A DNA stretch of 32,000 bases. Origin: Breznakia blatticola. Lineage in GTDB: Bacteria > Bacillota_I > Bacilli_A > Erysipelotrichales > Erysipelotrichaceae. Numbering within the stretch: the first letter of the stretch is position 1; every line of letters starts with the position of its first letter. Position numbers and translations under genes: made by a program. Positions 1 through 13,805 of the stretch are shown in pieces. The DNA lies in the NCBI RefSeq assembly GCF_004365815.1, contig NZ_SODD01000006.1:1-32000 (forward strand). Direction: 5' to 3'. The notes under the pieces are model-generated. The model made no database searches. It was not told the origin of the DNA and was given only the letters and a program-made list of their open reading frames with translations.

Positions 1-174
1 AATCTGCATCTTCTCAAACTGGTTATTTTGTTCTTGCTGCGCTAATAACTTCCGGTATTTATAATACTGACTTGGTGGTATATCATACATCTCCAAATAT
101 TCACTTTTTCTCATACCACTAGCTTCACAATCATTTATAATCTTTTGCCATTTCTTCATTGTTGTTTCTTTCAA
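1..174 (-). CDS. IS66-family accessory protein TnpA-like, N-terminal 58 codons (partial; runs off the window)
   Basis: My own translation: LKETTMKKWQKIINDCEASGMRKSEYLEMYDIPPSQYYKYRKLLAQQEQNNQFEKMQI. The W..I...C..SG......Y.......YY.[WY]RK pattern is typical of IS66 orf1/TnpA helix-turn-helix proteins. A GGAGG lies 9 nt upstream of a TTG at 174; an ATG at 159 is the alternative start. Confidence 0.6.
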   Translation of the reverse strand, partial: MKETTMKKWQKIINDCEASGMRKSEYLEMYDIPPSQYYKYRKLLAQQEQNNQFEKMQI

Positions 175-252
175 AATAAGGTACCTCCTTTTATAGAGAT
201 ACCCTATCATTTGTATGCTATTTTGAAAATCCGTGTATTATTTTACGCTTAC
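1..252 (-). mobile_element. Terminus of an IS66-family insertion sequence; the element continues beyond the window start
   Basis: Read on the minus strand from 252, the sequence begins GTAAGCGTAAAA. This matches the GTAAGCG start typical of IS66-family terminal inverted repeats. About 65 nt further in lie a GGAGG ribosome-binding site and a TnpA-like ORF. Confidence 0.55.
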
Positions 253-261
253 AACAAAAAC

Positions 262-349
262 GAGTATTATTAGCAACATGGGGTATTAGATTAGCTATTC
301 AAAAGGAGTATTATCAGCAACATGGGGTTTTAGATTAGCTATTCAAAAA
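262..349. repeat. Tandem direct repeat, 2 x 44 bp (262-305 and 306-349), 41/44 identical
   Basis: Copy 1 is gagtattattagcaacatggggtattagattagctattcaaaag. Copy 2 is gagtattatcagcaacatggggttttagattagctattcaaaaa. Confidence 0.95.
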
Positions 350-471
350 CAAGGGGATATTTTGTCCTATAGATAAACACCAGCAATATAGAAGTTCGGG
401 GTATATTGATTCTCAATATATCGCTAGCAAATAATAATTATATTTTCGCTAGTATCCTCATTTATTACCTA

Positions 472-1221
472 TTAGTATGGACTTTGATATGAACTACTTG
501 TACTATTATTGTCTGATTTACTTAAATTACACATTTTACAAGACAGTTGAATATTACATACATCATCTAATCCTCCATTACTTATAGCGACAATATGATC
601 AAAATGTCTTTCATCATCCTCTAACATTGTATATAAACCTGTTAAATCTTTTTTACAAAACACACAACATCCGTTATCTCTAAATATTACCGCTCGCTTT
701 ACCCATTTCGGAATATAACCCCTTTTTCTAACTTTTAAGTCAAATGAAGAAGCCATTTGCTCATTAAACCTTAACAAGAAATCTCTATTTTGAAATAAAA
801 TGTATTCCATTTCTATTGCAACGCTATAAATTATAGTCTCATAAAGATTTGCTTGTATCTTATCAATATAGTCAATATAAACATCGTATTTATCATAATA
901 ATCAATAGTATTCTCGAATATTTTCTCATCGATTACTAATTCAATATTTTTATACTTACTAATAGCTTGATTAAGCCAAAAAATAGGGTCAAAGTATGCA
1001 TTATCATTTTTTTCATCCATATATCTAACGTGTTCATCAAAGACGCTATCAACAAGCCAAAAACAGTATTCTCTTAAAATAGATACTTTAGGAAACTCAT
1101 CCACGATATGCAAAGGCTCAAAAAACTCAGCGTTTTTAGATAAATACTCAAATTTCCCCATAGACTCATTTGCTAACTGACAAAAATAATAAACATTAAA
1201 ATACTTCATATCTATTTGCAT
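472..1221 (-). CDS. HNH endonuclease domain protein with an unassigned N-terminal region of about 180 aa
   Basis: The C-terminus CCVFCKKD...HFDHIVAISNGGLDDVCNIQLSCKMCNLSK carries CxxC, HxDH, N and CxxCN, the classic HNH/zinc-finger core. GAGGAG lies 10 nt upstream of the ATG. Confidence 0.85.
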   Translation of the reverse strand: MQIDMKYFNVYYFCQLANESMGKFEYLSKNAEFFEPLHIVDEFPKVSILREYCFWLVDSVFDEHVRYMDEKNDNAYFDPIFWLNQAISKYKNIELVIDEKIFENTIDYYDKYDVYIDYIDKIQANLYETIIYSVAIEMEYILFQNRDFLLRFNEQMASSFDLKVRKRGYIPKWVKRAVIFRDNGCCVFCKKDLTGLYTMLEDDERHFDHIVAISNGGLDDVCNIQLSCKMCNLSKSDNNSTSSSYQSPY

Positions 1222-1331
1222 TATCTAAACACTCCTCACTAATACTGGTTCAGTTTTTGTTTTATATCATAGTTTTGTGTATCACATAGAGATTCCTATC
1301 ATTTTACACAGAAAAAGACTTTATTAATCAT

Positions 1332-2576
1332 CTATCTATCATAGAAATATTTCTCATTTAAATCATCAATTTGCGAGAAAATCTCCATTAGTACATTGAC
1401 TGCAATACTATTTCCAGCCAGTCTATATAATCGCTCTAAACTAAATAGACTGTATTTTGAAGACATATTAAAGTTATTATTCAATAGACTATTATAGTCA
1501 TCTTCTGAAAACCCCATTAGTAAAAAACATTCCCTTGGAGTCAAGTACCTGAAGTCAGATTTACCTTGACGATGTGGCATTGCAATCACACCTGAGTTTG
1601 GATGGCGATCTTGTTTTGTAGTAACTGTTGCAAGTATTTCATTCACTACATTTCCTTCATTATCAAGAATATGATGATTATCTCTATATATTCTTGCTCG
1701 AGACTTTGTATTATTTGGTTGAACGGATAATGCTTCGTTTAAATAGATCTCGTTAGCCATATTTAATCGCAAATAATTCTCTAGGTTTAATTCTACATTA
1801 GCATGAAAATTTGTTAAATCATTTTGTGAAAAATAATCATTTAATACTTGATCGAATCCCTGTGGTTGATCATTTATTCGAATACTCAACATATATGCTC
1901 TAACTCTTTTTTGCGGTAATCCGAAATTTTGAGCATTTAGCACCATCACTTTATTATAGTACCCATACTCTTCAAGTGTAACTAACCATTCATCAAAATT
2001 CGGCTTATTTCTTTTTCCTAGTATATTACTTACATTTTCCATTAATAAAAACCGAGGTTTTTCTTTATGAATAGTTTCCATTTCACTAAGTAATCTGTCA
2101 ATTTGCCATAACATGTTAGACCGATTTTCACTTAATCTATCAATCCCACCCTTATTTCCGTGCCAAAAACCAGCCACAGATAAATCTTGGCATGGAAATG
2201 AGTACGAAAGGCAATTACAATCATTTGGAATGTCAGTTGCACGCATTTCCATAATGCTGCCAACATTATTAGATCTTTCCTTTGCGCCTAAAATTCGACG
2301 TAGTACATCTGGTTTTTTATAAATCGAACTATTACTTTTAATCGGAACCTTTCCATTCATACTTAGTGAATAACGTTTAAACTCATTCATTACTTCTTCA
2401 TCAGTCATATTATTAAACTTAGAAAACTCCAAAGGACCATGATGAATTATATCATATGCTACCATTGCAGTAACATCCCAATCACATGTAACAAGAACTT
2501 CATGCTCAATTCCAGCATTTCGCAATGCCTTTCTTTGAGCACCTATTCCACTGAATGTCTCTGCTAACCTTATCAC
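1332..2576 (-). CDS. DNA (cytosine-5)-methyltransferase (Dcm-type)
   Basis: Motifs seen: I FSGIGA; IV SFPCQDLSVAG; VI LLMENVSNIL; VIII QKRVRAYML; IX RYLTPRECFLLMGF; X GNSIAVNVL. GTG start with GGGAGGA 5 nt upstream, 1 nt after the upstream stop codon. Confidence 0.95.
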   Translation of the reverse strand: MIRLAETFSGIGAQRKALRNAGIEHEVLVTCDWDVTAMVAYDIIHHGPLEFSKFNNMTDEEVMNEFKRYSLSMNGKVPIKSNSSIYKKPDVLRRILGAKERSNNVGSIMEMRATDIPNDCNCLSYSFPCQDLSVAGFWHGNKGGIDRLSENRSNMLWQIDRLLSEMETIHKEKPRFLLMENVSNILGKRNKPNFDEWLVTLEEYGYYNKVMVLNAQNFGLPQKRVRAYMLSIRINDQPQGFDQVLNDYFSQNDLTNFHANVELNLENYLRLNMANEIYLNEALSVQPNNTKSRARIYRDNHHILDNEGNVVNEILATVTTKQDRHPNSGVIAMPHRQGKSDFRYLTPRECFLLMGFSEDDYNSLLNNNFNMSSKYSLFSLERLYRLAGNSIAVNVLMEIFSQIDDLNEKYFYDR

Positions 2577-2577
2577 G

Positions 2578-3498
2578 TTATTCCTCCCACTTTGTTTTAA
2601 TCTGTCTACAATTCAATCCATTAAGATCAATTTGATACTGGATATTAGAAATGCTTTTTGGATATACATCATCTTTAAATGAATGTTTCGTAATTCTTGG
2701 AAACTTATCATCAATTGTATATTCCATTATGCTTAATAATCTAAATTTAATATTTCTTTCTGGCATATGCTTAGGGTATCCTAAATTGCCTAATTTTTCC
2801 TCTAGCTCTACTTTATGTTTTTCTGTAAATGTATTGCTTGCCAAAACATCATTGATAGAGATACCATTCATATCCACTTTTTCAAACCTGCAGAATAGTA
2901 ACTTTAAAGTTTTTTTTGAATCAAGTTGATACTCACTTGATATTGTAACAGCGCTACCATACCTAGCAACTGTCGACTTTACCTCATATCTACCTTTGTT
3001 TGTTTCAATATCGTTAACTCCATAGGTTTCAGCGAACCAGGTAGTATTCGGATTTCGTTCATAAATATTTTCATAACAAATCAACTCACCTAGTACATCA
3101 TAAATTCGCTTCGTTTTTATCGAATCTCCCAGTAGCTGTCTCCAAGATTCCCACCAAGCATACGGATTCGCAAAAGAACCATTTTTTAAATATTTGATGC
3201 CATTTAGTATAAACTCAGCACAAATAGACGAAAACTGTTCTCTTAAACCTTCTTCCTGTGTAACTAAAAGCAACCAACTTCCATCTCTGTTATTTATAAT
3301 TCTCTTTTTACTGCAAAGACTGACAGAGTTAAATTTTTCATCAATTTCAACTTCATAAAAGTTTTCAACCGCTATTCCATATTCTTTATTCGTACGAATT
3401 GTCCAAATTTCTAAGTCGCTATCCGCGTGAATACGCAAAGCTTGGTTATGATAAAGGTTTGCAAAATTTTTCTTCAAATCAAAACTGATATCATTCAT
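2578..3498 (-). CDS. PD-(D/E)XK motif protein (restriction-endonuclease fold, putative)
   Basis: YGVNDIETNKGRYEVKST gives D163-x8-E172-V-K174 (DNA about 2977-3012). The start overlaps the upstream stop as ATGA. The gene sits next to Z1, GHKL and Dcm genes, as do the annotated 'PD-(D/E)XK motif protein' families. Confidence 0.65.
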   Translation of the reverse strand: MNDISFDLKKNFANLYHNQALRIHADSDLEIWTIRTNKEYGIAVENFYEVEIDEKFNSVSLCSKKRIINNRDGSWLLLVTQEEGLREQFSSICAEFILNGIKYLKNGSFANPYAWWESWRQLLGDSIKTKRIYDVLGELICYENIYERNPNTTWFAETYGVNDIETNKGRYEVKSTVARYGSAVTISSEYQLDSKKTLKLLFCRFEKVDMNGISINDVLASNTFTEKHKVELEEKLGNLGYPKHMPERNIKFRLLSIMEYTIDDKFPRITKHSFKDDVYPKSISNIQYQIDLNGLNCRQIKTKWEE

Positions 3499-4163
3499 TG
3501 TTTTTCTCCATCTATAAAATAATTAAATAGGTAATCTACATATCCTACGAGACCGCCACTAAAAAAACATGGTTCTACCGTTTGAATCATTGCTGTATTT
3601 AAAATTAATACTTTTCTAAAGATATTTGTCGTTCTTTTCTTATAACTTGAATCCAGCAAAGAATATTTTAACATAATTTGACGATATAACGATATTAAAT
3701 ATCCTTTTCCACTACGCTCAACTAATTGCATTATTTCATCCGTCGAATTCCCTTCAACTACCTTAGTCGTTTCTTCAACACTACCTGCCCAACTTAAATG
3801 AATATACCACCAAAGTGTTTTCAACCATATTCTTCTCGATAGTTTATATAATCGGTCTTCATGCAAACCATTCCAACGGCTAGCAACTTGTTGAGGAAAA
3901 ACTTTTACCGATAAATATCTCCATACATCATCATTTGAAGCATCTCGTAAAGTAAAGTTTGCATCACGAAGATAAGAATACAGTGAGAGTCCAAATAAAT
4001 AATCAATTTTATATTTATTTTTCGTTGAAATTGCAATGTCTTTGTATATTTTTGCTAATCCATCATACAATTCTTGATATTCAGCATCAAAATCCGGTTC
4101 CAATTTATCAGTTGTAGATATAATTTCTTCACATTGACTTTTAGTTAATTCTTTCCAAACCAT
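3495..4163 (-). CDS. Hypothetical protein, 222 aa, no recognisable catalytic motif
   Basis: Long ORF inside a translationally coupled operon. GGGAGA ribosome-binding site. The start lies 4 nt after the upstream stop, and the stop overlaps the next start. Confidence 0.7.
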   Translation of the reverse strand: MVWKELTKSQCEEIISTTDKLEPDFDAEYQELYDGLAKIYKDIAISTKNKYKIDYLFGLSLYSYLRDANFTLRDASNDDVWRYLSVKVFPQQVASRWNGLHEDRLYKLSRRIWLKTLWWYIHLSWAGSVEETTKVVEGNSTDEIMQLVERSGKGYLISLYRQIMLKYSLLDSSYKKRTTNIFRKVLILNTAMIQTVEPCFFSGGLVGYVDYLFNYFIDGEKQ

Positions 4164-4167
4164 ATGA

Positions 4168-5103
4168 TTATCTCCCTATTTTCTCATTAAGTGTGTTTCG
4201 AATCGAATAAGATAATTTGTTTAAACTAGATACATCCCATTCAAAAGTAGTTAAAAAATAATGTATAGCTGCTGCAATAGAACCTTCTTGATAGTTTCCA
4301 CTTAAGATATTTTCCCAATCATTTTGATCACTTTTAATCTCATCAACTATAATCACTAATGCACTTGATATTATTTCGATTAATAGAGGAGATTTTTTAA
4401 TACTTAAACCTTCATTAATTATTTGAAATTGTGGGTGTGCACTATTCAAACATATTTGTAAATACTCCGAGGTGAAAGTTTCATTACATATATCTCCAAA
4501 TTCCATAAGGACACGCCATAAAGGAGCATTTGGTCTTGATTCAACTGTGATTGGAAACATTGATCCTCTTCCATCAAATATTAATTTAAATGGTAAAAAT
4601 TGTCCAAAAATTGTACCAGGAGTATTACAATAGAATTCATCTAAAAAATTCGGTTTCATACTTTCTAAATATATACTAAAATTAAAATCTACGACTCCAC
4701 GAAATTCACTTGCGTTTATTTTTTTTCGATAGTTGACCAATACCTTCTTATCCATTGGGTGTATTTCGTGAATTTTACATGATCCACGTTGTGATGAACT
4801 TACGGAATACCAATGTAAAGCGATTCCAAGCACTCCAAATGCATTTGTTACTCCTTCTTCACCAAACAAATGTCTTACATCAGTTATTTCCAACTCAACT
4901 TCAATTATTAATTCATTCTTTTGGGGACTGTAACCTGTCAAAGTAGAGACAATCTGATAGCTCATATTCTCTCTTTCAATATCGTCTATTTCAATTTCAC
5001 CTTCTTCATTTAGAAAAAAGAATTTTACATTATTTAGTGTAATTCCCATTAAGTCAAATAGATTTTCATCTATGGTGGGATACATGACAAATGAATTACT
5101 CAT
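4168..5103 (-). CDS. Hypothetical protein, 311 aa, no recognisable motif
   Basis: Long ORF. The ATG overlaps the stop of the GHKL gene by 8 nt. AAGAGG ribosome-binding site. Confidence 0.7.
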   Translation of the reverse strand: MSNSFVMYPTIDENLFDLMGITLNNVKFFFLNEEGEIEIDDIERENMSYQIVSTLTGYSPQKNELIIEVELEITDVRHLFGEEGVTNAFGVLGIALHWYSVSSSQRGSCKIHEIHPMDKKVLVNYRKKINASEFRGVVDFNFSIYLESMKPNFLDEFYCNTPGTIFGQFLPFKLIFDGRGSMFPITVESRPNAPLWRVLMEFGDICNETFTSEYLQICLNSAHPQFQIINEGLSIKKSPLLIEIISSALVIIVDEIKSDQNDWENILSGNYQEGSIAAAIHYFLTTFEWDVSSLNKLSYSIRNTLNEKIGR

Positions 5104-7183
5104 CTATTACCTCTTTTCCAATTACTTTTATTAGACCTTTAAAATCTCTAGAAATCGAACCAATACAAAGTTCGGCTCGAATCTTTCTGTTTTTTAAAGC
5201 GTTTCCTGAAAGCCGAATACAAAGGTAATTTTTTGTTGGTAAGTTATCCAAATTGCGGCCTCGCAATAACTTGCAAGTTATCCCCTCATATTGAGCATAA
5301 GGATTTTTATCGTCAATATATAACCCAATGCACTTGCCCTCTATTTTTTTGCCCATAATTGAATCAACATTAAAACTATATATAAAAAACGGAAATTCTT
5401 CATTGAATTCTTCCATCCAGTTTCTAAACGTAAAACTTCCAGTTTCTCTTTCAACACTTATAGTAATATCTATTTGATTATTATTTTTTCCGGTAAATAT
5501 CTCAACATCATTCTTTAAACCACGATTTGTAAGTTTTGAACTAGTTACCTTACAATTTGCATTCTTACCGGTAGCACTAAATGACTCACTTGACGCTCCA
5601 TTGCTTGATTTTATTAATGTACTACTTCTTCCAAACCCTGTTGAGGGCAATAATATCGCTGCAACCTGGCGACCTATCGCCTCGTCAATTTCAATTGTAT
5701 TAGATGCTGTATCTTCTTTATATTCATTAACTACAAACTTAGATACATGAGATTTAATCTTTCTTATTATTTTGTATTCCGGCTTGTCATCCCATCTAGA
5801 ATGATCACCTAACTCAATTGATCTAATGTATTGTTCCAAGTTATCATAATTTTCTCTACCATCCATTTGAAGCAGTTTATTTTCAGAATTAAGTTTAAAT
5901 ATTCCTATTAAATACTCATCTTCCTCAGTTTTTGGAATACCTCTTGTCCAATCGCTCTCAAATTCATAGTTAATAATTAAACAGGGTTTTCGAGTAAATG
6001 TAATTATAGGAAGGTTACCTTCAGTAGGAATGTCTAAACTGCAATAACTATATGGTGAAAAGTAGTTATGTGGTGGAGTCATCTTAAGTTCATATTTATT
6101 TACTTTAATAAACATTATTTTTCCTGCAAGTCTATTTGAACTAGAAGCAAACTCATTTGTTAGTATTACATCTTTGATTATCATTGGATTATGAAAACTA
6201 AGAAAGTAGCCCTCATTTTCATTATATAGTTCCTTTATAATTTTAAATAATGGCAAAATATCATTTTCGCTTAACACATTTCTATTTATAGACACTCTTA
6301 AAAATGGTCCATATTGATAATTGATATTATTGACACGCGGACCATACCACCTTTGAATTGCAACACGAAAATATGCACCCAAAGAATTTGTCCATGGATA
6401 TCTTGTATCATTATCACTATAAATCTGGTGAGCGTTATTAAGTAGATCTTCATCATTGACATAAGGAATTAATATAATTGTTCCAGTCTCTTCACCAAAG
6501 TATGGTGTTATATTAAAACAATGAAGAATTTCATTTATTTCTTCATCATCAGTGATCGGGCATGTTTCACCGGTATCTTTATACCTCTTGCCCCACCATG
6601 TTATACCAGCATAATTTTTGTACTTGTCTTTAGGAATAAATGTATCTTCCTTTTCATTCTCAACTAATGTGACAGCAAGTCGCTGTTGATATTGTCCATT
6701 GCTTAGCTTCACACGAGAATAATATAGCACCATTCCGATACCTACTCTAAAATACACTGTTTTCCCTAGCCCCCAAGAACCTCCTGCACCTTCTTGCTCT
6801 TGAGGCTTCATTATATGATAAATAAGTTTAAGCAAATTTCCTGCCTTATTACTCTCTGTAACTTCATCATCGCTCAAAGGACCTGTAAGTCCAACAGTAT
6901 TTTTATCAGAAAATGCTAAAAAACGATATCTATCCAATGGATATTTCAATGAAAAACTGTTATTTAGCTCATCCAAGTGTATTAGAAATTCTTTTGAATT
7001 AAAATCACCTGCTAAGACACCAAAATCAACATACTTTTTTGATAAATCCGATGCGTCCAAACTATTTTGAACAACCTCTCTAGTCAACAAGTCTAAAGTC
7101 GGAAGTTTATTATTTTGAATTGCACGAAACAATGAACTTCCTGTTTGTTGCATTCTACCATTTCTTAATACATCAATCTTCAT
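5096..7183 (-). CDS. GHKL-superfamily (HATPase_c / MORC-like) ATPase
   Basis: Bergerat-fold motifs: N-box EVVQNSLDAS; G1 DKNTVGLTG; G2 GAGGSWGLGKTVYF. I prefer the ATG at 7183 (AGGAA 7 nt upstream) over the track's TTG at 7207. Either start overlaps the Z1 gene stop at 7173. Confidence 0.8.
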   Translation of the reverse strand: MKIDVLRNGRMQQTGSSLFRAIQNNKLPTLDLLTREVVQNSLDASDLSKKYVDFGVLAGDFNSKEFLIHLDELNNSFSLKYPLDRYRFLAFSDKNTVGLTGPLSDDEVTESNKAGNLLKLIYHIMKPQEQEGAGGSWGLGKTVYFRVGIGMVLYYSRVKLSNGQYQQRLAVTLVENEKEDTFIPKDKYKNYAGITWWGKRYKDTGETCPITDDEEINEILHCFNITPYFGEETGTIILIPYVNDEDLLNNAHQIYSDNDTRYPWTNSLGAYFRVAIQRWYGPRVNNINYQYGPFLRVSINRNVLSENDILPLFKIIKELYNENEGYFLSFHNPMIIKDVILTNEFASSSNRLAGKIMFIKVNKYELKMTPPHNYFSPYSYCSLDIPTEGNLPIITFTRKPCLIINYEFESDWTRGIPKTEEDEYLIGIFKLNSENKLLQMDGRENYDNLEQYIRSIELGDHSRWDDKPEYKIIRKIKSHVSKFVVNEYKEDTASNTIEIDEAIGRQVAAILLPSTGFGRSSTLIKSSNGASSESFSATGKNANCKVTSSKLTNRGLKNDVEIFTGKNNNQIDITISVERETGSFTFRNWMEEFNEEFPFFIYSFNVDSIMGKKIEGKCIGLYIDDKNPYAQYEGITCKLLRGRNLDNLPTKNYLCIRLSGNALKNRKIRAELCIGSISRDFKGLIKVIGKEVIDE

Positions 7184-10031
7184 AATCAAATTCCTTATGT
7201 TTGGCAAGGTCTATTGTAATAGTAACAACGTGATTATCGTTTATTTTTTGTCCAGGCATTGTAATCATTAAACCAACAAGATCATCTACAGCACACATAT
7301 CTTCACGTGTTTTATTTATTTTATTAGAGTTTGAAAGATATTTATAATCCTTCTTTATACGATATATTGTCAGTAAAGGCGTTTTTTCTAAACCTACCAA
7401 TTTTCTATATGATTTATATTCTTGTGTGATTCTTTTTTGATTTCTACTTAAGCCTTTAAAATCAACACGTGATGCAAACTCTAATGGAACATCTGCAAGC
7501 AAATCAATTGGTGATCTTAAAATTCTTATATCAATAAGGTTTTTCTCGTCATTTTTTTCACTTATCAATTTTGAACGATTTGTTAATCCTAATCCATAAT
7601 TCTTTACCACCCAAGGATTTTGATCGTTAATTTTCCCTGATCCGTTAAATACGATGTTCCAGTTATCGTATTCTTGGCTAGAGTTAATTTCTTCAAACCA
7701 CTTTGTAAACTGTTCAATTTCGTGAAAAAAACTCGTTTCTTTTGGAGCTTGATAAACTTCCAAAAATGGTTTTATTACCTCGTTGAAATTGACGTTTCTA
7801 CAACAAAGACTTGTTCCGTCATGTGTAACATCAAAATCATCCAATTTTTGTATCAGTACATCTAAGTTTGCTAAGTTTGTAGCGACACTTTCTTCATTAT
7901 TAGAGAAAAGTGTAGTTTGTGTCGAGTACCCACTAAAATCAAAATTGGCATTGATTGCGGCTTGCATTTTATTTTTTGAAGTAATTGCTAGCCATGACAT
8001 TTTTGGTGTACTTTTAATGTTTACACCATATTCTTTTGGATCACATCCATTTTGAAAACGTTCTAAATCACTCCTTAACTCATAATCTAGCTCTGATAAG
8101 AATTCAAATTTTTCTTGTGCATCTGAATCCATCCAAATTCGAGGAAGTAGTTCATAACCTTTACGATACCCAAACCAACGTCCCATTTGCATTAATGTAT
8201 CTGCTTGCTTTACAGTACGAAGAAAATATGTAGAAACCAATCCTTCCATAGTTAATCCTCTAGATAAAGTACTCCCACCAATAACTATAAAAGCTGGAGC
8301 AAGGTTATCATCCTTTATTTCACTAGGATATGCTAAACGAACATGATCATCACTATCACGAGACATGTTGTTCGCGCAGTTATCAACACATATATGCAAA
8401 CCGTTATGATAGTTGAGATTCCCTTGTTCATCTAACTTTATATATGAAATCTTAGATAAAAGTTCTTCAATGTAAATTTCAATTTCTTCGAACATCGGAT
8501 AATCATTTATTTTTCTTGAGTTATAGTCATATAAAGGTAATGAATCTATGAATTTCCCTTTATCAAGTGCTGTTGTCTCGCGCATCCAAACTTTCTTGCA
8601 AGCTTCAATCGTTTGACTAACATTATGTTTATAACTTGTCAAAAGATTATGAAGAGAATGATAAATCGTATTGTGATCGGCTTGTCTTTGACTTACATGA
8701 ATTAATAACGTAACAGGTTTTCTACTTATCAAACTATTTACTTGAAAATGTCGCATAGTAGCTGCTGTACACAAAAACCATAATAAAGAATGCTCTAAAC
8801 TTTTTGGTGCACTAAAATTCAAATTACGTTCAGTTGCATTTTTTAACGCCTTTCTATCAAAATCGTCAGCATTTCTTACAATATCCATTCCATTATAGTC
8901 TTCAACACCACTAACACCAAAGATTTCTTGTGGACCAAAATATTCTTTTGTTTGATCTAAAAAATTTATAAAATTTCTTGGATATAAAGAGTCTATTGTT
9001 GATTCATTTAAAAAGTTTGCATATGGTGTAGCAGTGTATGACACATAATTTATTGCTTTCGCTTTAAAATCTTTATTTTTTATATATCCATTTTTTGTTC
9101 CTTCTACCAAGTCGATGATAAGTTTATTTATCTTTTTTCTCTCATCGTTAATTTCTTCAATTGACAGTGTTTCGTACATATTGCTTGTATTTACACTTGC
9201 CTGATCAGCCTCATCATCAATTATAAGAATCTTCATATTTTTATATTTATTTTCGTCATGATGAAGCCAATCATTTAACGCTTGTAGTCTTTTCGCATTT
9301 TTTAGACATACGGTAAAATATCTTTTTGATTGTCCATCATTAAAATTAAACAATTGTGATTCTTTAACAAAGCCACTTGAAGTAGACGGATGTTCAAGAA
9401 GTTGAAAACTAATATTGCAATTGTCTTGATAATTCAAATCGTTAATTAATCTTTCTTGTGTTTGAATTCTAAGATTATCGATAGTCCCGGATAAAACGAT
9501 GAACATATTCCATCCATAATCAGCAGCCATAGCTATCAAGCCAGCCATATTAGCAGTTTTTCCCGATTGTACATTTCCAACAACCATACCTTTTATTGAT
9601 CCAATTTGTCTTGTATCTATACTTAGTCTTTTAAGAGTTCTATGTGCACTGTCTTCAATTCCTGCAATGGCATCCTCATCGAATTTCTTTCTTTTTAGCA
9701 TTTTTCTGTAATTCACCCAAACAGTTTGATTTCCTTTAGGCACTTCAAATTCATTATTATCAGCTCCATTAGTGATAATCCCCGATTTTTTTGAATCCTT
9801 AAAAGCAATCATCTTTTCTTCACTCTCTTTTAATGATTTTACAATAGCATCCCATTCTTCAAGTGTAATTTCACAGAATCCATCTTCAAATACTTTACGA
9901 TTTAGAAATTCAACCAATCCTCTTTCATCTTTTTTAAGTCCTAGTGCAATATCATCCCAACTAATACCACGTTTTCTAGAATTACGTATCCAGTCACGGT
10001 ATTCATCATATCCTATTCCAAAAACATCCAT
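7173..10031 (-). CDS. Z1-domain protein with an SF2/DEAD-like P-loop NTPase core
   Basis: Walker A GNVQSGKTANMAG (aa 152-164); Walker B/DEAD IIDDEADQAS (aa 270-279); TATPYANF. The C-terminal block GGSTLSRGLTMEGL...DTLMQMGRWFGYRKGY is what I recognise as the Z1-domain signature. AAGGAGG ribosome-binding site. Confidence 0.85.
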   Translation of the reverse strand: MDVFGIGYDEYRDWIRNSRKRGISWDDIALGLKKDERGLVEFLNRKVFEDGFCEITLEEWDAIVKSLKESEEKMIAFKDSKKSGIITNGADNNEFEVPKGNQTVWVNYRKMLKRKKFDEDAIAGIEDSAHRTLKRLSIDTRQIGSIKGMVVGNVQSGKTANMAGLIAMAADYGWNMFIVLSGTIDNLRIQTQERLINDLNYQDNCNISFQLLEHPSTSSGFVKESQLFNFNDGQSKRYFTVCLKNAKRLQALNDWLHHDENKYKNMKILIIDDEADQASVNTSNMYETLSIEEINDERKKINKLIIDLVEGTKNGYIKNKDFKAKAINYVSYTATPYANFLNESTIDSLYPRNFINFLDQTKEYFGPQEIFGVSGVEDYNGMDIVRNADDFDRKALKNATERNLNFSAPKSLEHSLLWFLCTAATMRHFQVNSLISRKPVTLLIHVSQRQADHNTIYHSLHNLLTSYKHNVSQTIEACKKVWMRETTALDKGKFIDSLPLYDYNSRKINDYPMFEEIEIYIEELLSKISYIKLDEQGNLNYHNGLHICVDNCANNMSRDSDDHVRLAYPSEIKDDNLAPAFIVIGGSTLSRGLTMEGLVSTYFLRTVKQADTLMQMGRWFGYRKGYELLPRIWMDSDAQEKFEFLSELDYELRSDLERFQNGCDPKEYGVNIKSTPKMSWLAITSKNKMQAAINANFDFSGYSTQTTLFSNNEESVATNLANLDVLIQKLDDFDVTHDGTSLCCRNVNFNEVIKPFLEVYQAPKETSFFHEIEQFTKWFEEINSSQEYDNWNIVFNGSGKINDQNPWVVKNYGLGLTNRSKLISEKNDEKNLIDIRILRSPIDLLADVPLEFASRVDFKGLSRNQKRITQEYKSYRKLVGLEKTPLLTIYRIKKDYKYLSNSNKINKTREDMCAVDDLVGLMITMPGQKINDNHVVTITIDLAKHKEFDYED

Positions 10032-10080
10032 TTTATTCCTCCTTTAGTATACTTACAATACTTACCAAAATTATTAAAAT

Positions 10081-10118
10081 CAAAAACAAAAGAGATTATT
10101 TGTAAAAACAATCTCTTT
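10081..10118 (-). terminator. Rho-independent terminator of guaA
   Basis: On the minus strand: AAAGAGATT, a 12-nt loop, AATCTCTTT, followed by TGTTTTTG. Confidence 0.7.
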
Positions 10119-10202
10119 ATTTCGATTATAGTTAAATCAAATACTCATGAATAAAGATTGTCCCTTAAATATTATACAATATTTAATTAAGATAATCATT
10201 AA

Positions 10203-11747
10203 CTATTCAAACTCAATCGTCCCTGGAGGCTTACTAGTAATGTCTAATAGTACCCTATTCACATGATTAACTTCATTTACAATTCTACTCGAGATAACTG
10301 ATAGCACATTAAACGGAATATGTGCCCAGTCAGCAGTCATTCCATCAATTGATGTTACAGCGCGAATGGCAACTGCATAGTCATATGTTCTTTGATCTCC
10401 CATAACTCCAACAGAACGCATATTTGTAAGTGCTGTAAAGTATTGCCAAATCTCTCTATCTAATCCTGCTTTTGCAATTTCCTCACGTAGAATGAAATCT
10501 GAATCACGTACAATTTCTAGTTTCTCTTCAGTGATTTCACCAAGAACACGAATACCTAATCCTGGTCCTGGGAATGGTTGACGCCACACCATTGATTCAG
10601 GAAGCCCAAGTTCTGTACCTAATGCACGAACTTCATCCTTAAATAATGTATTTAATGGCTCAATTAATTTAAACTGCATATCTTCAGGTAATCCACCAAC
10701 ATTATGGTGTGATTTGATTGTTTGAGCTGTTTTTGTACCAGACTCAATAACATCTGTATATAATGTTCCTTGAGCTAACCACTTAATATCTTCTCCTTGA
10801 ACAAGTTTTTTCACTTCTTCATCAAATGTATAAACAAATTCATTACCAATGATTTTACGTTTTTCTTCTGGATCACTAACTCCAGCAAGCTTATTTAAGA
10901 AACGTTCTCTTGCATCTACTTTTGTAAGGTTGATGTTCATTTCTTTTCCAAACATCTCCATTACGCCTTCAGCTTCACCTTTACGTAATAATCCATGATC
11001 AATAAACATACAGTATAGTTGATCACCAATCGCTTTATGTAATAACGCTGCAACTACAGAAGAATCTACTCCACCACTAAGAGCAAGTAATACTTTATCA
11101 GTTCCTACTTGTTCACGGATCTTTGCGATTTCTGTATCGACAAAACTATGCATAGACCAATCAGCATCTGCATGACAAACTTCAAAGACAAAGTTTTTTA
11201 AAATATCATTCCCAAACTCTGAGTGACGTACTTCTGGATGAAATTGCAATGTATAAATATTCTTAGCTACATTGCTTGTTACTGCAAATGTGCATGTTGA
11301 ACTTGATGCGTCTTTTACAAATCCATCAGCAAGCTCACTTACTTGATCACCATGTGACATCCAAACAACTTGTTTTTTTGGCAATCCTTTGAAGATTGGT
11401 GAGTCATTCTCAATTTCGATTTCAGTTCTACCATATTCTTTTGAATCACATGCTTTAACCTTTCCACCATTCATATAGTGAGTCATTTGCATTCCATAAC
11501 AAATCCCTAGAATTGGAATCCCTGCTTCATATATTGCTTTATCTACTTTAAATGCATCTTCATCATAGACACTATTTGGTCCACCACTAAAGATAATCCC
11601 TCTAACATCACCTAATGCTTTAATTTCATCTAGACTCATATCATGTGGATGTAATTCACTATAAACTCCAAACTCACGAATACGTCTAGCAATCAACTGG
11701 TTATATTGACTACCAAAGTCTAATACAATAATTTTATCAGCCATCAT
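10203..11747 (-). CDS. guaA: GMP synthase (glutamine-hydrolysing)
   Basis: Full-length match to the GuaA pattern: GATase N-terminus ([27 protein letters not shown]), ATP-PPase SGGVDSS, C-terminal dimerisation domain ending PPGTIEFE. Confidence 0.97.
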
Positions 11748-11951
11748 TTTCTCCTTTTTTTATCTCACCTAGTGTAACATTTCCGGCAACTTTTTTCTAC
11801 ATTTTGCATACAATATACAAAAGAATGAGAATAGTTATAATACTTTGGATTAGTAATTATTTTTATCTGCTTTTATTATTCGTATTCACTCTATCACTCA
11901 AACAAGTTTAATCATTGAGATTTTTAATAAAATCCATGCTAAAATATAAGC

Positions 11952-13064
11952 ATGGTGAGTATATTTAAATTATTATTACTTGTGTTTCTTATTGTTGTTA
12001 CAGGGTATACAGCATTTAAATACATTGAGATTTTACGTATTAAGAACAAGAAAGTAAAAAGAGGCTTATATACATTTTTGTATTTTTTCCAGTTTATGTT
12101 TATTTTACGTTTCTTCTTAGTTCCTAGACTAACGACACATGGATGGCCAGTGTTATTTATTCTTTGGAGTACAAGTGTATTCTTTATGTTTATTATTCTG
12201 TCATTTATCTTTTTCGCATTTGTATCAATTTACAACATTATTCAAAAACGAATGATTCGTAAATGGTATGTTCCTAGAAGAGATATTATTATGCTATTAA
12301 TGGTATTCTCTATTATTATTGGAACATATTCAACGATTCACGCTCGAGTCATAACAACACAGAGTTATTATGTTCATGTGCAAAAAGAAAGTATACATAG
12401 TGAACTTCGCATTGCATACATTAGTGACTTACATTTAGGAAATTCAGTAGACATTAAAAAACTTAAGAAAATTGTGGATGATGTAAATAACGCAGAACCA
12501 GATTTAGTACTATTTGGTGGAGATATCTTTGATGAACTAACAAATGATTATCATCTAAAGAAATCAGTTGATGTGTTCAAACAACTAACCCCTACCTATG
12601 GTTCTTACTATGTGTTTGGTAACCACGAGGAACATCGCAGCAATCTAGGCATCTATTATGATGCACTTGAAGCAGCAGGTATTACTCCAATTGTGGACGA
12701 TGTGATGGTAGTTGCCGATGATATCCAACTTATTGGACGTGATGATTACACGAAGCATAAAGATCGTCCATCTCTAAAATCACTTGCTAAAAAGCTTGAC
12801 CAAAGTAAACCTATCATTGTTTTAGATCATCAGCCAATCATTGATGACTATCGTGATATTGATTTACAGCTATCTGGACACACCCACGATGGTCAAATAT
12901 TTCCATACAACTTATTGGTTGCAATTCAATTTCCGCACTCTTATGGCTATTTTAAAGAGCCATATCAAATGATAACATCAAGTGGTGCAGGAACTTGGGG
13001 AGTACCAGCTAGACTTGGTAGTGATTCAGAAATTGTAATTATAAACATGATTATGGATAGATAA
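11952..13064 (+). CDS. Membrane-anchored calcineurin-like metallophosphoesterase
   Basis: N-terminal hydrophobic segments, then DLHLGN, GGDIFD, GNHE and GHTHDGQ motifs. The start codon is uncertain because no clear SD precedes it. Confidence 0.85.
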   Translation: MVSIFKLLLLVFLIVVTGYTAFKYIEILRIKNKKVKRGLYTFLYFFQFMFILRFFLVPRLTTHGWPVLFILWSTSVFFMFIILSFIFFAFVSIYNIIQKRMIRKWYVPRRDIIMLLMVFSIIIGTYSTIHARVITTQSYYVHVQKESIHSELRIAYISDLHLGNSVDIKKLKKIVDDVNNAEPDLVLFGGDIFDELTNDYHLKKSVDVFKQLTPTYGSYYVFGNHEEHRSNLGIYYDALEAAGITPIVDDVMVVADDIQLIGRDDYTKHKDRPSLKSLAKKLDQSKPIIVLDHQPIIDDYRDIDLQLSGHTHDGQIFPYNLLVAIQFPHSYGYFKEPYQMITSSGAGTWGVPARLGSDSEIVIINMIMDR

Positions 13065-13065
13065 A

Positions 13066-13091
13066 CAAAAATGAGCTCGTGCTCATTTTTA
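13066..13091. terminator. Bidirectional terminator between convergent genes
   Basis: AAAAATGAGC tcgt GCTCATTTTT. Confidence 0.75.
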
Positions 13092-13805
13092 TTTTGTTTG
13101 ATTGTGTATCCACTGCAGTACATTCATCCAACGTTTCATTAAATATTGTGTGTGACCACCTTCATCAATGTATAGTTCAACTGAACGATTTGGTAATGTA
13201 TCAATTGTTGCTTGAGTTAAATCTTTTGTGAATAGTTTTTCTCCACTTGTCTCCATCCATTCTCGAGTACCACAAGAAAAGTATACTTGTGCTTGGTTAT
13301 TAAGTACTTGATGTTCATTAATAAATGTTAACCAATTTGGATACCAGAAAGATCCTGATAGACTTCCAACACCTGCAAAGTAATCTGTTTGATATAAAGA
13401 ATACGTCGAAAATAATCCAGCAAGTGAAAAACCTGTAAGATATGTAGGAACTTTAGGAATCTGCTGTTCTTCTAAAAAAGGTGGCAGCACTTGTAGTAAT
13501 TCATTTAAATATACCGATGCCTGTCCTGTAAAGTTCTCATAAATATCATGTAATTCACTAACATCCCATGGCGTATACTGTGCATCTCGATTACTTGGTT
13601 GTATCCCAATTACATACATTTCTTGTAATAAAGGATCACGAAACATCTGTCCTAAATTATTAAAAATACTATCTCCATCAAGCACCCAAACAATTGGATA
13701 TATTTTATCTTCTTGTATTTCCTTAGGCCGAAATATATAGATATCCACTTGCTCATTTAGCATTGTTAGTTTCTTCTTTGTAAGTCCTTGTATCATCGTA
13801 TCCAC
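13089..13805 (-). CDS. Alpha/beta-hydrolase, putative esterase family
   Basis: GFSLAGL nucleophile elbow (GxSxG). The overall layout resembles the 'putative esterase' (enterochelin-esterase-like) family. Confidence 0.75.
   Translation of the reverse strand: MDTMIQGLTKKKLTMLNEQVDIYIFRPKEIQEDKIYPIVWVLDGDSIFNNLGQMFRDPLLQEMYVIGIQPSNRDAQYTPWDVSELHDIYENFTGQASVYLNELLQVLPPFLEEQQIPKVPTYLTGFSLAGLFSTYSLYQTDYFAGVGSLSGSFWYPNWLTFINEHQVLNNQAQVYFSCGTREWMETSGEKLFTKDLTQATIDTLPNRSVELYIDEGGHTQYLMKRWMNVLQWIHNQTK

What the first reader, a model, noticed from the sequence alone, without database searches (positions are those of the whole stretch)
1332..10031. Six-gene translationally coupled operon: Z1/SF2 NTPase, GHKL (MORC-like) ATPase, two unknown proteins, PD-(D/E)XK protein and C5 methyltransferase. 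Candidate multi-component methylation-linked defence system.
Seen directly in the sequence:
- All six ORFs are on the minus strand, and their junctions imply co-translation. Z1 stop 7173 and GHKL ATG 7183 overlap. GHKL stop 5096 and next ATG 5103 overlap. There is a 4-nt gap at 4163/4168, an ATGA overlap at 3495-3498, and a 1-nt gap at 2576/2578. Each gene has its own SD.
- Motifs: Z1 has GNVQSGKT, DDEAD and the GGSTLSRGLT...MQMGRWFGYRKGY block. The ATPase has GHKL N, G1 and G2 boxes. The nuclease candidate has D-x8-EVK. The methyltransferase has all the classic C5 motifs.

Established knowledge: Z1-domain proteins (Pfam Z1) and MutL/MORC-like GHKL ATPases have been noted by comparative genomics to sit next to C5 methylases. 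The analysis I recall is by Iyer, Abhiman and Aravind on MORC-like ATPases in R-M contexts. In those clusters the usual partners are AIPR and Vsr proteins.

Inference:
- I know of no biochemical mechanism for this combination.
- This locus lacks AIPR and Vsr. It carries instead two unassignable genes and a downstream HNH gene, so it may be an undescribed variant.
- It may be related to the recently named methylation-associated defence system (MADS). I cannot verify that from memory.
- Only about 50 bp separate the guaA terminator from the Z1 start, and I see no convincing promoter there.
Basis: partly seen in the sequence, partly recalled or inferred. Interest (0 to 1): 0.85.

Follow-up and report, generated by a model that had tools for sequence, protein, structure and literature searches.

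The report
Six-gene methylation-linked restriction operon
This is a real, tightly packed six-gene operon in Breznakia blatticola that most likely cuts unmethylated foreign DNA; the gene set was listed by computer analysis in 2022 but has never been tested, and four of its six proteins resemble no solved structure by sequence.

Summary

What I add, from 79 species-representative genomes:
- The core is followed by a swappable module. This is DUF4420 plus C5 methylase in either order (46 loci), an NgoFVII/CglI-type PLD nuclease plus methylase (21), or DUF4420 with no linked methylase (10).

The best reading is an NTP-dependent, methylation-gated restriction system related to CglI/NgoAVII and Mza.

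The GHKL call rests on motifs only; every profile test failed. DUF6339 has a confident all-alpha model with no fold match. The downstream HNH gene is not part of the system.

The parts
7173..10031 (-). [not shown]
5096..7183 (-). 695-aa ATPase candidate, possibly a paraMORC2-like GHKL; the fold is not confirmed. Conserved N-terminal ~520 aa, hypervariable C-terminal ~170 aa.
   Evidence: Invariant motifs E36/N40/D43, D93/G98/G101, G134-G135-x-W-G-x-G-K141, G234-T235, E457-x2-D460-H461. PADLOC PDC-M33A in 8 of 8 members. No Pfam, PDB, MutL or MzaB profile match. C-terminal mean pairwise distance 0.80 against 0.58 for the N-terminal part.
4168..5103 (-). 311-aa core protein with no family model: an N-terminal beta-sandwich (about 20-220) plus a C-terminal helical bundle (239-308).
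   Evidence: No hit in Pfam, PADLOC, NCBIfam or PHROGs. 678 clusters at 50% identity, all stand-alone and about 310 aa. AF2 pLDDT 82.7. Foldseek returns only generic Ig-like sandwiches, TMq 0.21-0.28. Invariant F183, W196, N220.
3495..4163 (-). DUF6339 protein (222 aa), all-alpha, with no fold match in PDB or BFVD.
   Evidence: PF19866 precomputed for the identical protein; 714 relatives, some NCBI-named 'DUF6339 family protein'. AF2 pLDDT 94.3, pTM 0.89. No Foldseek hit below E=1 in PDB or BFVD. No PDB profile hit. Invariant W81, R111, W113, W118-W119-Y120, G154-Y155, F182. The local Pfam scan gave no hit at E<=0.1.
2578..3498 (-). DUF4420 PD-(D/E)XK protein (306 aa), the predicted nuclease subunit. 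N-terminal ~130 aa of unknown role; catalytic E138, D163, E172-x-K174.
   Evidence: Pfam DUF4420 1.3e-21. NCBIfam MzaD 56.8 bits against a cut-off of 420. Catalytic residues present in 40 of 40 systems. The E. coli homologue MzaD cuts DNA in vitro (bioRxiv 10.1101/2022.06.16.496414).
1332..2576 (-). C5 cytosine DNA methyltransferase (414 aa, GTG start), the predicted self-protection subunit.
   Evidence: Pfam DNA_methylase 2.4e-47. TIGR00675 above cut-off. Best PDB matches 4dkj/8c56, E=4e-42, full length. 43-45% identical to the MTases of PLD-type loci.
10076..10118 (-). [not shown]
472..1221 (-). HNH endonuclease gene (249 aa), 110 nt downstream of the MTase. It is adjacent to the system but not part of it.
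   Evidence: Pfam HNH 3.2e-07. Not conserved next to the system.

Best explanation

Proposed working model (shown and inferred steps are marked):
1. The C5 methyltransferase marks host DNA at its target sites. (Enzyme family shown; specificity unknown.)
2. The DUF4420 PD-(D/E)XK protein is the nuclease. It occupies the same operon slot that an NgoFVII/CglI-type R protein (B3-like reader plus PLD nuclease) occupies in sister loci. It is therefore inferred to combine site reading, probably in its N-terminal ~130 aa, with cleavage.

The six genes are made from one polycistronic mRNA with translational coupling. Transcription either reads through the guaA terminator or starts at a weak unrecognised promoter.
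For: - Family membership: same gene set and sizes as Miller Type I.
- Modular effector: DUF4420-MT 23 loci, MT-DUF4420 23, PLD(RE_NgoFVII)-MT 21.
- Purifying selection on all predicted active sites: Walker A/B, E-D-ExK, PC/ENV/QxRxR are invariant.
- Defence-island context in relatives: other RM systems, Gabija-like, NERD/UvrD and Vsr genes.
- Sporadic distribution across Bacilli, Clostridia, and Chlorobiaceae, archaeal and Ca. Sabulitectum MAGs, plus pseudogenised copies in streptococci. This is typical of mobile defence genes.
Against: - No experiment exists for this family.
- Ten of 79 loci have the five-gene module without a linked C5 methylase. One Agrobacterium plasmid has a distant core-only version with no nuclease or methylase. 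Methylation gating is therefore not universal in the family.
- The GHKL fold of the second ATPase is unconfirmed.
- The methylase's specificity is unknown. Site-avoidance statistics in 32 kb are uninformative.
- No promoter was identified.
Confidence: 0.65

Rival explanations
1. [not shown]
Against: - 68 of 79 loci do have a C5 methylase translationally adjacent to the nuclease.
- Methylase and nuclease are exchanged together as a module, as in R-M systems.
- Three of the methylase-less loci still have a Vsr next to them (L045, L062, L066), which suggests methylase loss or an unlinked methylase.
- The Agrobacterium ATPase-candidate gene lacks the N-terminal motif block and follows a 270-nt gap, so it may be decayed.
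Confidence: 0.15
2. Two independent systems lie side by side: an ordinary Type II R-M pair (DUF4420 nuclease plus C5 methylase) and a separate four-gene system of unknown function.
For: The nuclease-methylase pair is swapped as a block against a constant core, and its internal order varies. The window's methylase is closest to methylases of PLD-type loci, while its core proteins are closest to those of DUF4420-type loci.
Against: - DUF6339 and DUF4420 overlap by ATGA here. The DUF6339-to-next-gene junction is 20 nt or less in 98% of systems.
Confidence: 0.08
3. The locus is a modification-dependent (Type IV-like) or abortive system that attacks modified phage DNA, with the methylase unrelated to self-marking.
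For: mzaABCDE restricts T4 carrying C, hmC or ghmC DNA, with different genetic requirements for each. Methylase-less variants exist.
Against: A tightly linked C5 methylase would make a 5mC-directed nuclease suicidal. Growth curves for Mza show no abortive phenotype. Nothing in the proteins resembles known methyl-cytosine readers in the family libraries searched.
Confidence: 0.05
4. It is a DNA-repair or epigenetic-maintenance module (MutL-like ATPase, helicase, nuclease and Dcm, analogous to very-short-patch repair) rather than a defence system.
For: It resembles the MutL/UvrD/Vsr/Dcm logic discussed by Iyer et al.. Vsr is frequently adjacent in the family (47 of 79 loci).
Against: The distribution is sporadic and laterally mobile, with defence-island neighbours. 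Copies are pseudogenised in streptococci. Nuclease folds are swapped. This locus has no Vsr at all.
Confidence: 0.04

Closest known systems
'Type I' putative defence system of Miller, Stern and Burstein 2022 (Nat Commun 13:5731, PMC9523054, Suppl. Table 11)
mzaABCDE (Gao et al. 2020; tested in E. coli in bioRxiv 10.1101/2022.06.16.496414)
   Different: - Scores are far below the equivalog cut-offs (231 vs 1500; 56.8 vs 420).
- No AIPR (MzaE) and no sigma factor (MzaA).
- The second ATPase is not detectably homologous to the MzaB HATPase_c_3 protein.
- The 311-aa protein and DUF6339 have no Mza counterpart.
CglI / NgoAVII / BceSIV NTP-dependent restriction-modification systems (Zaremba et al. 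2014, PMC4267653)
Type 3 MORC/paraMORC operons of Iyer, Abhiman and Aravind 2008 (PMC2292703)
   Same: An SF2 helicase with the DThhQXuRhFG C-terminal domain (here D611-T-L-M-Q-M-G-R-W-F-G621), a novel RE-fold protein with E-D-ExK, and a Dcm. paraMORC2 is described as common in Gram-positive bacteria and as having an ExxxH motif; here E457-x3-H461 is invariant.
   Different: The paper does not mention the 311-aa or DUF6339 partners in its text. The paraMORC2 identity of the 695-aa protein could not be verified by any profile comparison.
MADS (Maestri et al., bioRxiv 10.1101/2023.03.30.534895)
   Same: A multi-gene, methylation-based defence operon.

Membership tests
[not shown]
   [not shown]
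[not shown]
   DUF4420 1.3e-21 and DNA_methylase 2.4e-47.
[not shown]
   695-, 222- and 311-aa proteins in the same operon, with sizes and annotations matching Suppl. Table 11. Sequence identity to their cluster representatives could not be tested, because those sequences were not at hand.
mzaABCDE (NCBIfam/PADLOC definitions) | MzaC equivalog (NF041933, cut-off 1500 bits) | tested here: not met
   231 bits.
mzaABCDE (NCBIfam/PADLOC definitions) | MzaD equivalog (NF041934, cut-off 420 bits) | tested here: not met
   56.8 bits.
mzaABCDE (NCBIfam/PADLOC definitions) | AIPR protein (MzaE) and a HATPase_c_3 MutL-like ATPase (MzaB) in the operon | tested here: not met
   No AIPR or HATPase_c_3 hit for any of the seven proteins. 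hhalign of the ATPase-candidate family against Pfam-verified MzaB-type proteins gives probability below 1%.
[not shown]
   [not shown]
CglI/NgoAVII-type NTP-dependent R-M | R protein with a B3-like DNA-binding domain and a PLD nuclease domain | tested here: not met
   The window has DUF4420 (PD-(D/E)XK) instead. 21 of 79 sister loci do have RE_NgoFVII/PLDc_2 proteins in that slot.
CglI/NgoAVII-type NTP-dependent R-M | Three-gene system in which ATP hydrolysis is triggered by unmethylated sites | not testable with these tools
   Needs biochemistry. The family here always has six (or five) genes.
GHKL / paraMORC2 ATPases (for the 695-aa protein) | Bergerat-fold motifs I-IV in order (N box, G1, G2, GT) | tested here: inconclusive
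   Candidate motifs are invariant and in the right order, but the spacing is longer than in MzaB. G135-x4-G140-K141-T142 also fits Walker A.
GHKL / paraMORC2 ATPases (for the 695-aa protein) | Statistically supported homology to HATPase_c / HATPase_c_3 / MutL / MORC | tested here: not met
   - Pfam: none at E<=5 for 8 members.
- PDB profile: none.
- hhalign vs MutL: probability 2-4%.
- hhalign vs MzaB-type proteins: below 1%.
- Only PADLOC PDC-M33A hits, 2e-12.
- Miller et al. also report MORC2 as non-significant.
GHKL / paraMORC2 ATPases (for the 695-aa protein) | [quoted passage not shown] | tested here: met
   E457 and H461 are present in 59 of 59 systems. Whether the motif lies in an S5 domain could not be tested.
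MADS | N6-adenine methyltransferase with the mad1-8 gene set | tested here: not met
   The methylase here is C5. No PADLOC hit to a MADS component (PADLOC v2.0.0 may predate MADS).

The most novel reading that the evidence does not exclude
Probability: 0.3. Interest if true: 0.75.

Novelty: new member of a known kind. Interest (0 to 1): 0.5.

Why it matters
The family is widespread. The 311-aa protein family has 678 clusters at 50% identity. DUF6339 loci were found in 79 species-representative genomes, including staphylococci, streptococci, lactobacilli, bacilli and gut Clostridia.

It is absent from PADLOC v2, and its parts fail the NCBIfam Mza equivalog cut-offs. Current annotation would therefore call it, at best, a lone methylase plus hypothetical proteins.

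Five of its six proteins have no solved-structure relative by sequence, and one has a confident model with no fold match.

If the model is right, the family is a natural experiment in modular restriction. The same motor core drives two unrelated nuclease folds, and it pairs an SF2 motor with a second ATPase. The recent MANTIS work reports two ATPases coupling methylation to restriction, but in an unrelated system.

Practically, such systems are barriers to transformation and phage therapy in Bacillota.

Tried and rejected
- MADS and MANTIS: read and rejected as unrelated.
- HEF_HK/Response_reg_2 paraMORC-linked two-component elements (PMC8011034) and the VcSduA paraMORC3/Shedu system (PMC12137116): read; different proteins.
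- HNH as a seventh component: rejected.
- GHKL confirmation: all negative.
- Foldseek of the 311-aa model: only generic Ig-like sandwiches such as RhoGDI and UNC119, with low TM-scores. I treat this as uninformative.
- Foldseek of DUF6339 against PDB and BFVD: nothing.
- PHROGs: no hit for the five non-methylase system proteins scanned.
- IMG/VR scan for DUF6339: no viral contig.
- Covariation test to identify the sequence reader: weak and inconclusive.
- Methylase specificity from site avoidance: not significant. CpG O/E 0.73; GCSGC 2 observed vs 5.2±2.2 expected; GCWGC 28 vs 16.9.
- Promoter scan: not enriched and nothing convincing.
- Rfam and tRNA scans of the window: nothing.
- Exact-sequence look-ups of the Breznakia contig for more flank: not on record.
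- Composition: no GC anomaly across the operon.
Full report
**1. Observation**

The window is from *Breznakia blatticola*. The 311-aa and 222-aa proteins are 100% identical to EDD63_1066 and EDD63_1065.

The junctions are as described:
- 8-nt overlap
- 4-nt gap
- ATGA overlap
- 1-nt gap

Each start has an SD-like purine run. The second gene starts at ATG 7183 rather than at the longer TTG ORF, because all homologues align from there.

**2. What the proteins are**

- **DUF4420 protein.** Pfam 1.3e-21. It hits MzaD at 56.8 bits against a cut-off of 420.
- **Methylase.** A bona fide C5 enzyme: Pfam 2.4e-47, and TIGR00675 above its cut-off. Its nearest solved structure is 4dkj/8c56 at E=4e-42 over the full length. 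From my own knowledge these entries are M.MpeI, a CpG methylase. At this divergence the specificity cannot be transferred.
- **222-aa protein.** DUF6339. PF19866 is precomputed for the identical protein, and 714 relatives were found. The local hmmscan gave no hit at E<=0.1, a discrepancy I could not resolve.
- **311-aa protein.** No model in Pfam, PADLOC, NCBIfam or PHROGs. It nonetheless defines a real family: 678 clusters at 50% identity, all stand-alone and about 310 aa.
- **HNH protein** (472-1221). A generic HNH endonuclease.

**3. Structures**

- *311-aa protein.* AF2 gives pLDDT 82.7: a beta-sandwich followed by a helical bundle. Foldseek returns only generic Ig-like sandwiches with TMq 0.21-0.28.
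- *DUF6339.* AF2 gives pLDDT 94.3 and pTM 0.89, all-alpha. There is no Foldseek match below E=1 in PDB or BFVD.

**4. The GHKL question**

The 695-aa family has invariant motifs that look like GHKL boxes, in the correct order:
- R-E36-x2-Q-N40-S-L-D43-A
- D93-x2-T-x-G-L-x-G101
- G-G-S-W-G-L-G-K141-T
- E-T-G234-T235
- E457-x2-D-H461, which fits the ExxxH signature Iyer et al. give for paraMORC2, a family they describe as common in Gram-positive bacteria

No statistical test supports the fold:
- Pfam: nothing at E<=5 for eight members.
- PDB profile: nothing.
- hhalign against E. coli MutL: probability 2-4%.
- hhalign against four Pfam-verified HATPase_c_3 MzaB-type proteins from canonical Mza plasmid loci: below 1%.

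Miller et al. likewise list MORC2 as a non-significant HHpred hit. The G-x4-G-K-T stretch also fits a Walker A loop. I therefore call it an "ATPase candidate, probably paraMORC-like". Both structure-prediction slots had already been used on the two unknown proteins.

**5. Conservation as a unit**

Three distant homologues of the 311-aa protein (33-36% identity) sit in the same six-gene cluster.

A DUF6339-profile scan of one genome per species returned 79 loci. I annotated them with HMMs built from my own alignments. The core is complete and colinear in 63 of 64 loci with enough contig; the remaining one is a parser artefact.

| Effector module after the core | Loci |
|---|---|
| DUF4420 then MT | 23 |
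| MT then DUF4420 | 23 |
| PLD then MT | 21 |
| DUF4420 with no linked C5 MT | 10 |
| none detected (archaeal MAG) | 1 |
| contig ends right after DUF6339 | 1 |

- Core junctions are 20 nt or less in 97-100% of 58 complete systems.
- All predicted catalytic residues are invariant.
- A Vsr lies within 10 kb in 47 of 79 loci. There is none in this window.
- The HNH gene does not recur.
- No viral contig carries the family.
- The window is a mosaic. Its core proteins are closest to those of DUF4420-type Bacillaceae loci, but its methylase is closest (45%) to methylases of PLD-type loci. Its gene order is also the PLD-type order.

**6. Prior knowledge**

- mzaABCDE protects E. coli against T4, and purified MzaD cuts DNA.
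- Miller, Stern and Burstein 2022 list the very gene set of this window as "Type I" of a putative defence system, absent from PADLOC and DefenseFinder. It is a context-based prediction only.
- No searchable paper mentions DUF6339, and I found no later experimental study.
- MADS is an unrelated N6-adenine system. MANTIS is Gao_RL.

**7. Mechanism**

The best-supported reading is an NTP-dependent, methylation-gated restriction system:
- the methylase protects self DNA;
- DUF4420 is the nuclease, sitting in the slot of the CglI-type R protein;
- the three remaining core proteins form an obligatory accessory sub-complex of unknown role, possibly a second ATP-driven clamp.

What is shown: protein families, active-site conservation, operon structure, modularity and co-inheritance. 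What is inferred: the roles of the subunits, the gating by methylation, and any function for the 311-aa and DUF6339 proteins.

Methylase-less loci and a distant core-only Agrobacterium plasmid locus keep open a methylation-independent role for the core.

**8. Verdict**

This is a genuine and well-conserved system. As a gene set it has already been catalogued in silico, so the locus is a new and rather divergent member of a known, uncharacterised kind, not an undescribed variant.

It remains a worthwhile experimental target. There are no biochemical data, there are two orphan proteins, the second ATPase is unverified, and the nuclease module is demonstrably interchangeable.

Noticed in passing
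window 5096-5620 (C-terminal ~170 aa of the 695-aa protein): The C-terminal region after the conserved LLP-x3-FG motif is hypervariable across the family: mean pairwise distance 0.80 against 0.58 for the N-terminal part. It could be a specificity or anti-evasion domain.
   Followed up: partly
window 6757-6783 (G134-T142 of the 695-aa protein): The motif GGSWGLGKT, read as a GHKL G2 box, also matches Walker A (GxxxxGK[ST]) exactly. The fold assignment is therefore ambiguous without a structure model.
   Followed up: partly
window 1332-2576 versus loci L004, L007, L009, L055: The window's methylase is 43-45% identical over its full length to methylases that partner PLD (NgoFVII-type) nucleases. 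It is only ~31% identical over ~110 aa to methylases of three other DUF4420-type loci (L001-L003). The locus looks like a module-swap mosaic.
   Followed up: partly
L045, L054, L058, L061, L062, L063, L066, L067, L069, L072: A subclade in Bacillaceae, Paenibacillus and Planococcus has the five-gene module (core plus DUF4420) with no adjacent C5 methylase. Downstream genes are unrelated: helicases, AAA ATPases, Macro, NERD, PLD-ResIII. Three of these loci still have a Vsr nearby.
   Followed up: partly
[not shown]
   Followed up: partly
L020 (Chlorobiaceae MAG) 51-13272: Two copies of the system in tandem. The first copy (cut at the contig start) has DUF4420 but no methylase, and the second is complete.
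   Followed up: no
[not shown]
   Followed up: no
L025, L032, L038, L043, L048: The methylase ORF (~560 aa) also matches a Vsr HMM, so these appear to be Dcm-Vsr fusion proteins.
   Followed up: no
L071 (Methanomassiliicoccaceae archaeon MAG) 4199-10678: The four-gene core occurs in an archaeal MAG with no DUF4420 or PLD gene detected downstream. Two C5 methylase genes lie 1.4-3 kb away.
   Followed up: no
window 10172-10177 (minus strand): A perfect TATAAT hexamer preceded by TTG lies between the guaA stop codon and the guaA terminator hairpin. If it is used as a promoter, the terminator would sit in the 5' leader of the operon. No acceptable -35 element was found.
   Followed up: no
window, whole 32 kb: GCWGC is over-represented: 28 observed against 16.9±4.1 in dinucleotide shuffles, with 0 of 100 shuffles reaching 28. 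CpG O/E is 0.73 with TG/CA at 1.19. The meaning is unclear, and this may be codon usage.
   Followed up: no
window 3495-4163: Discrepancy between tools. The identical protein carries a precomputed PF19866 (DUF6339) hit in the protein database, but the local Pfam hmmscan returned nothing at E<=0.1.
   Followed up: no
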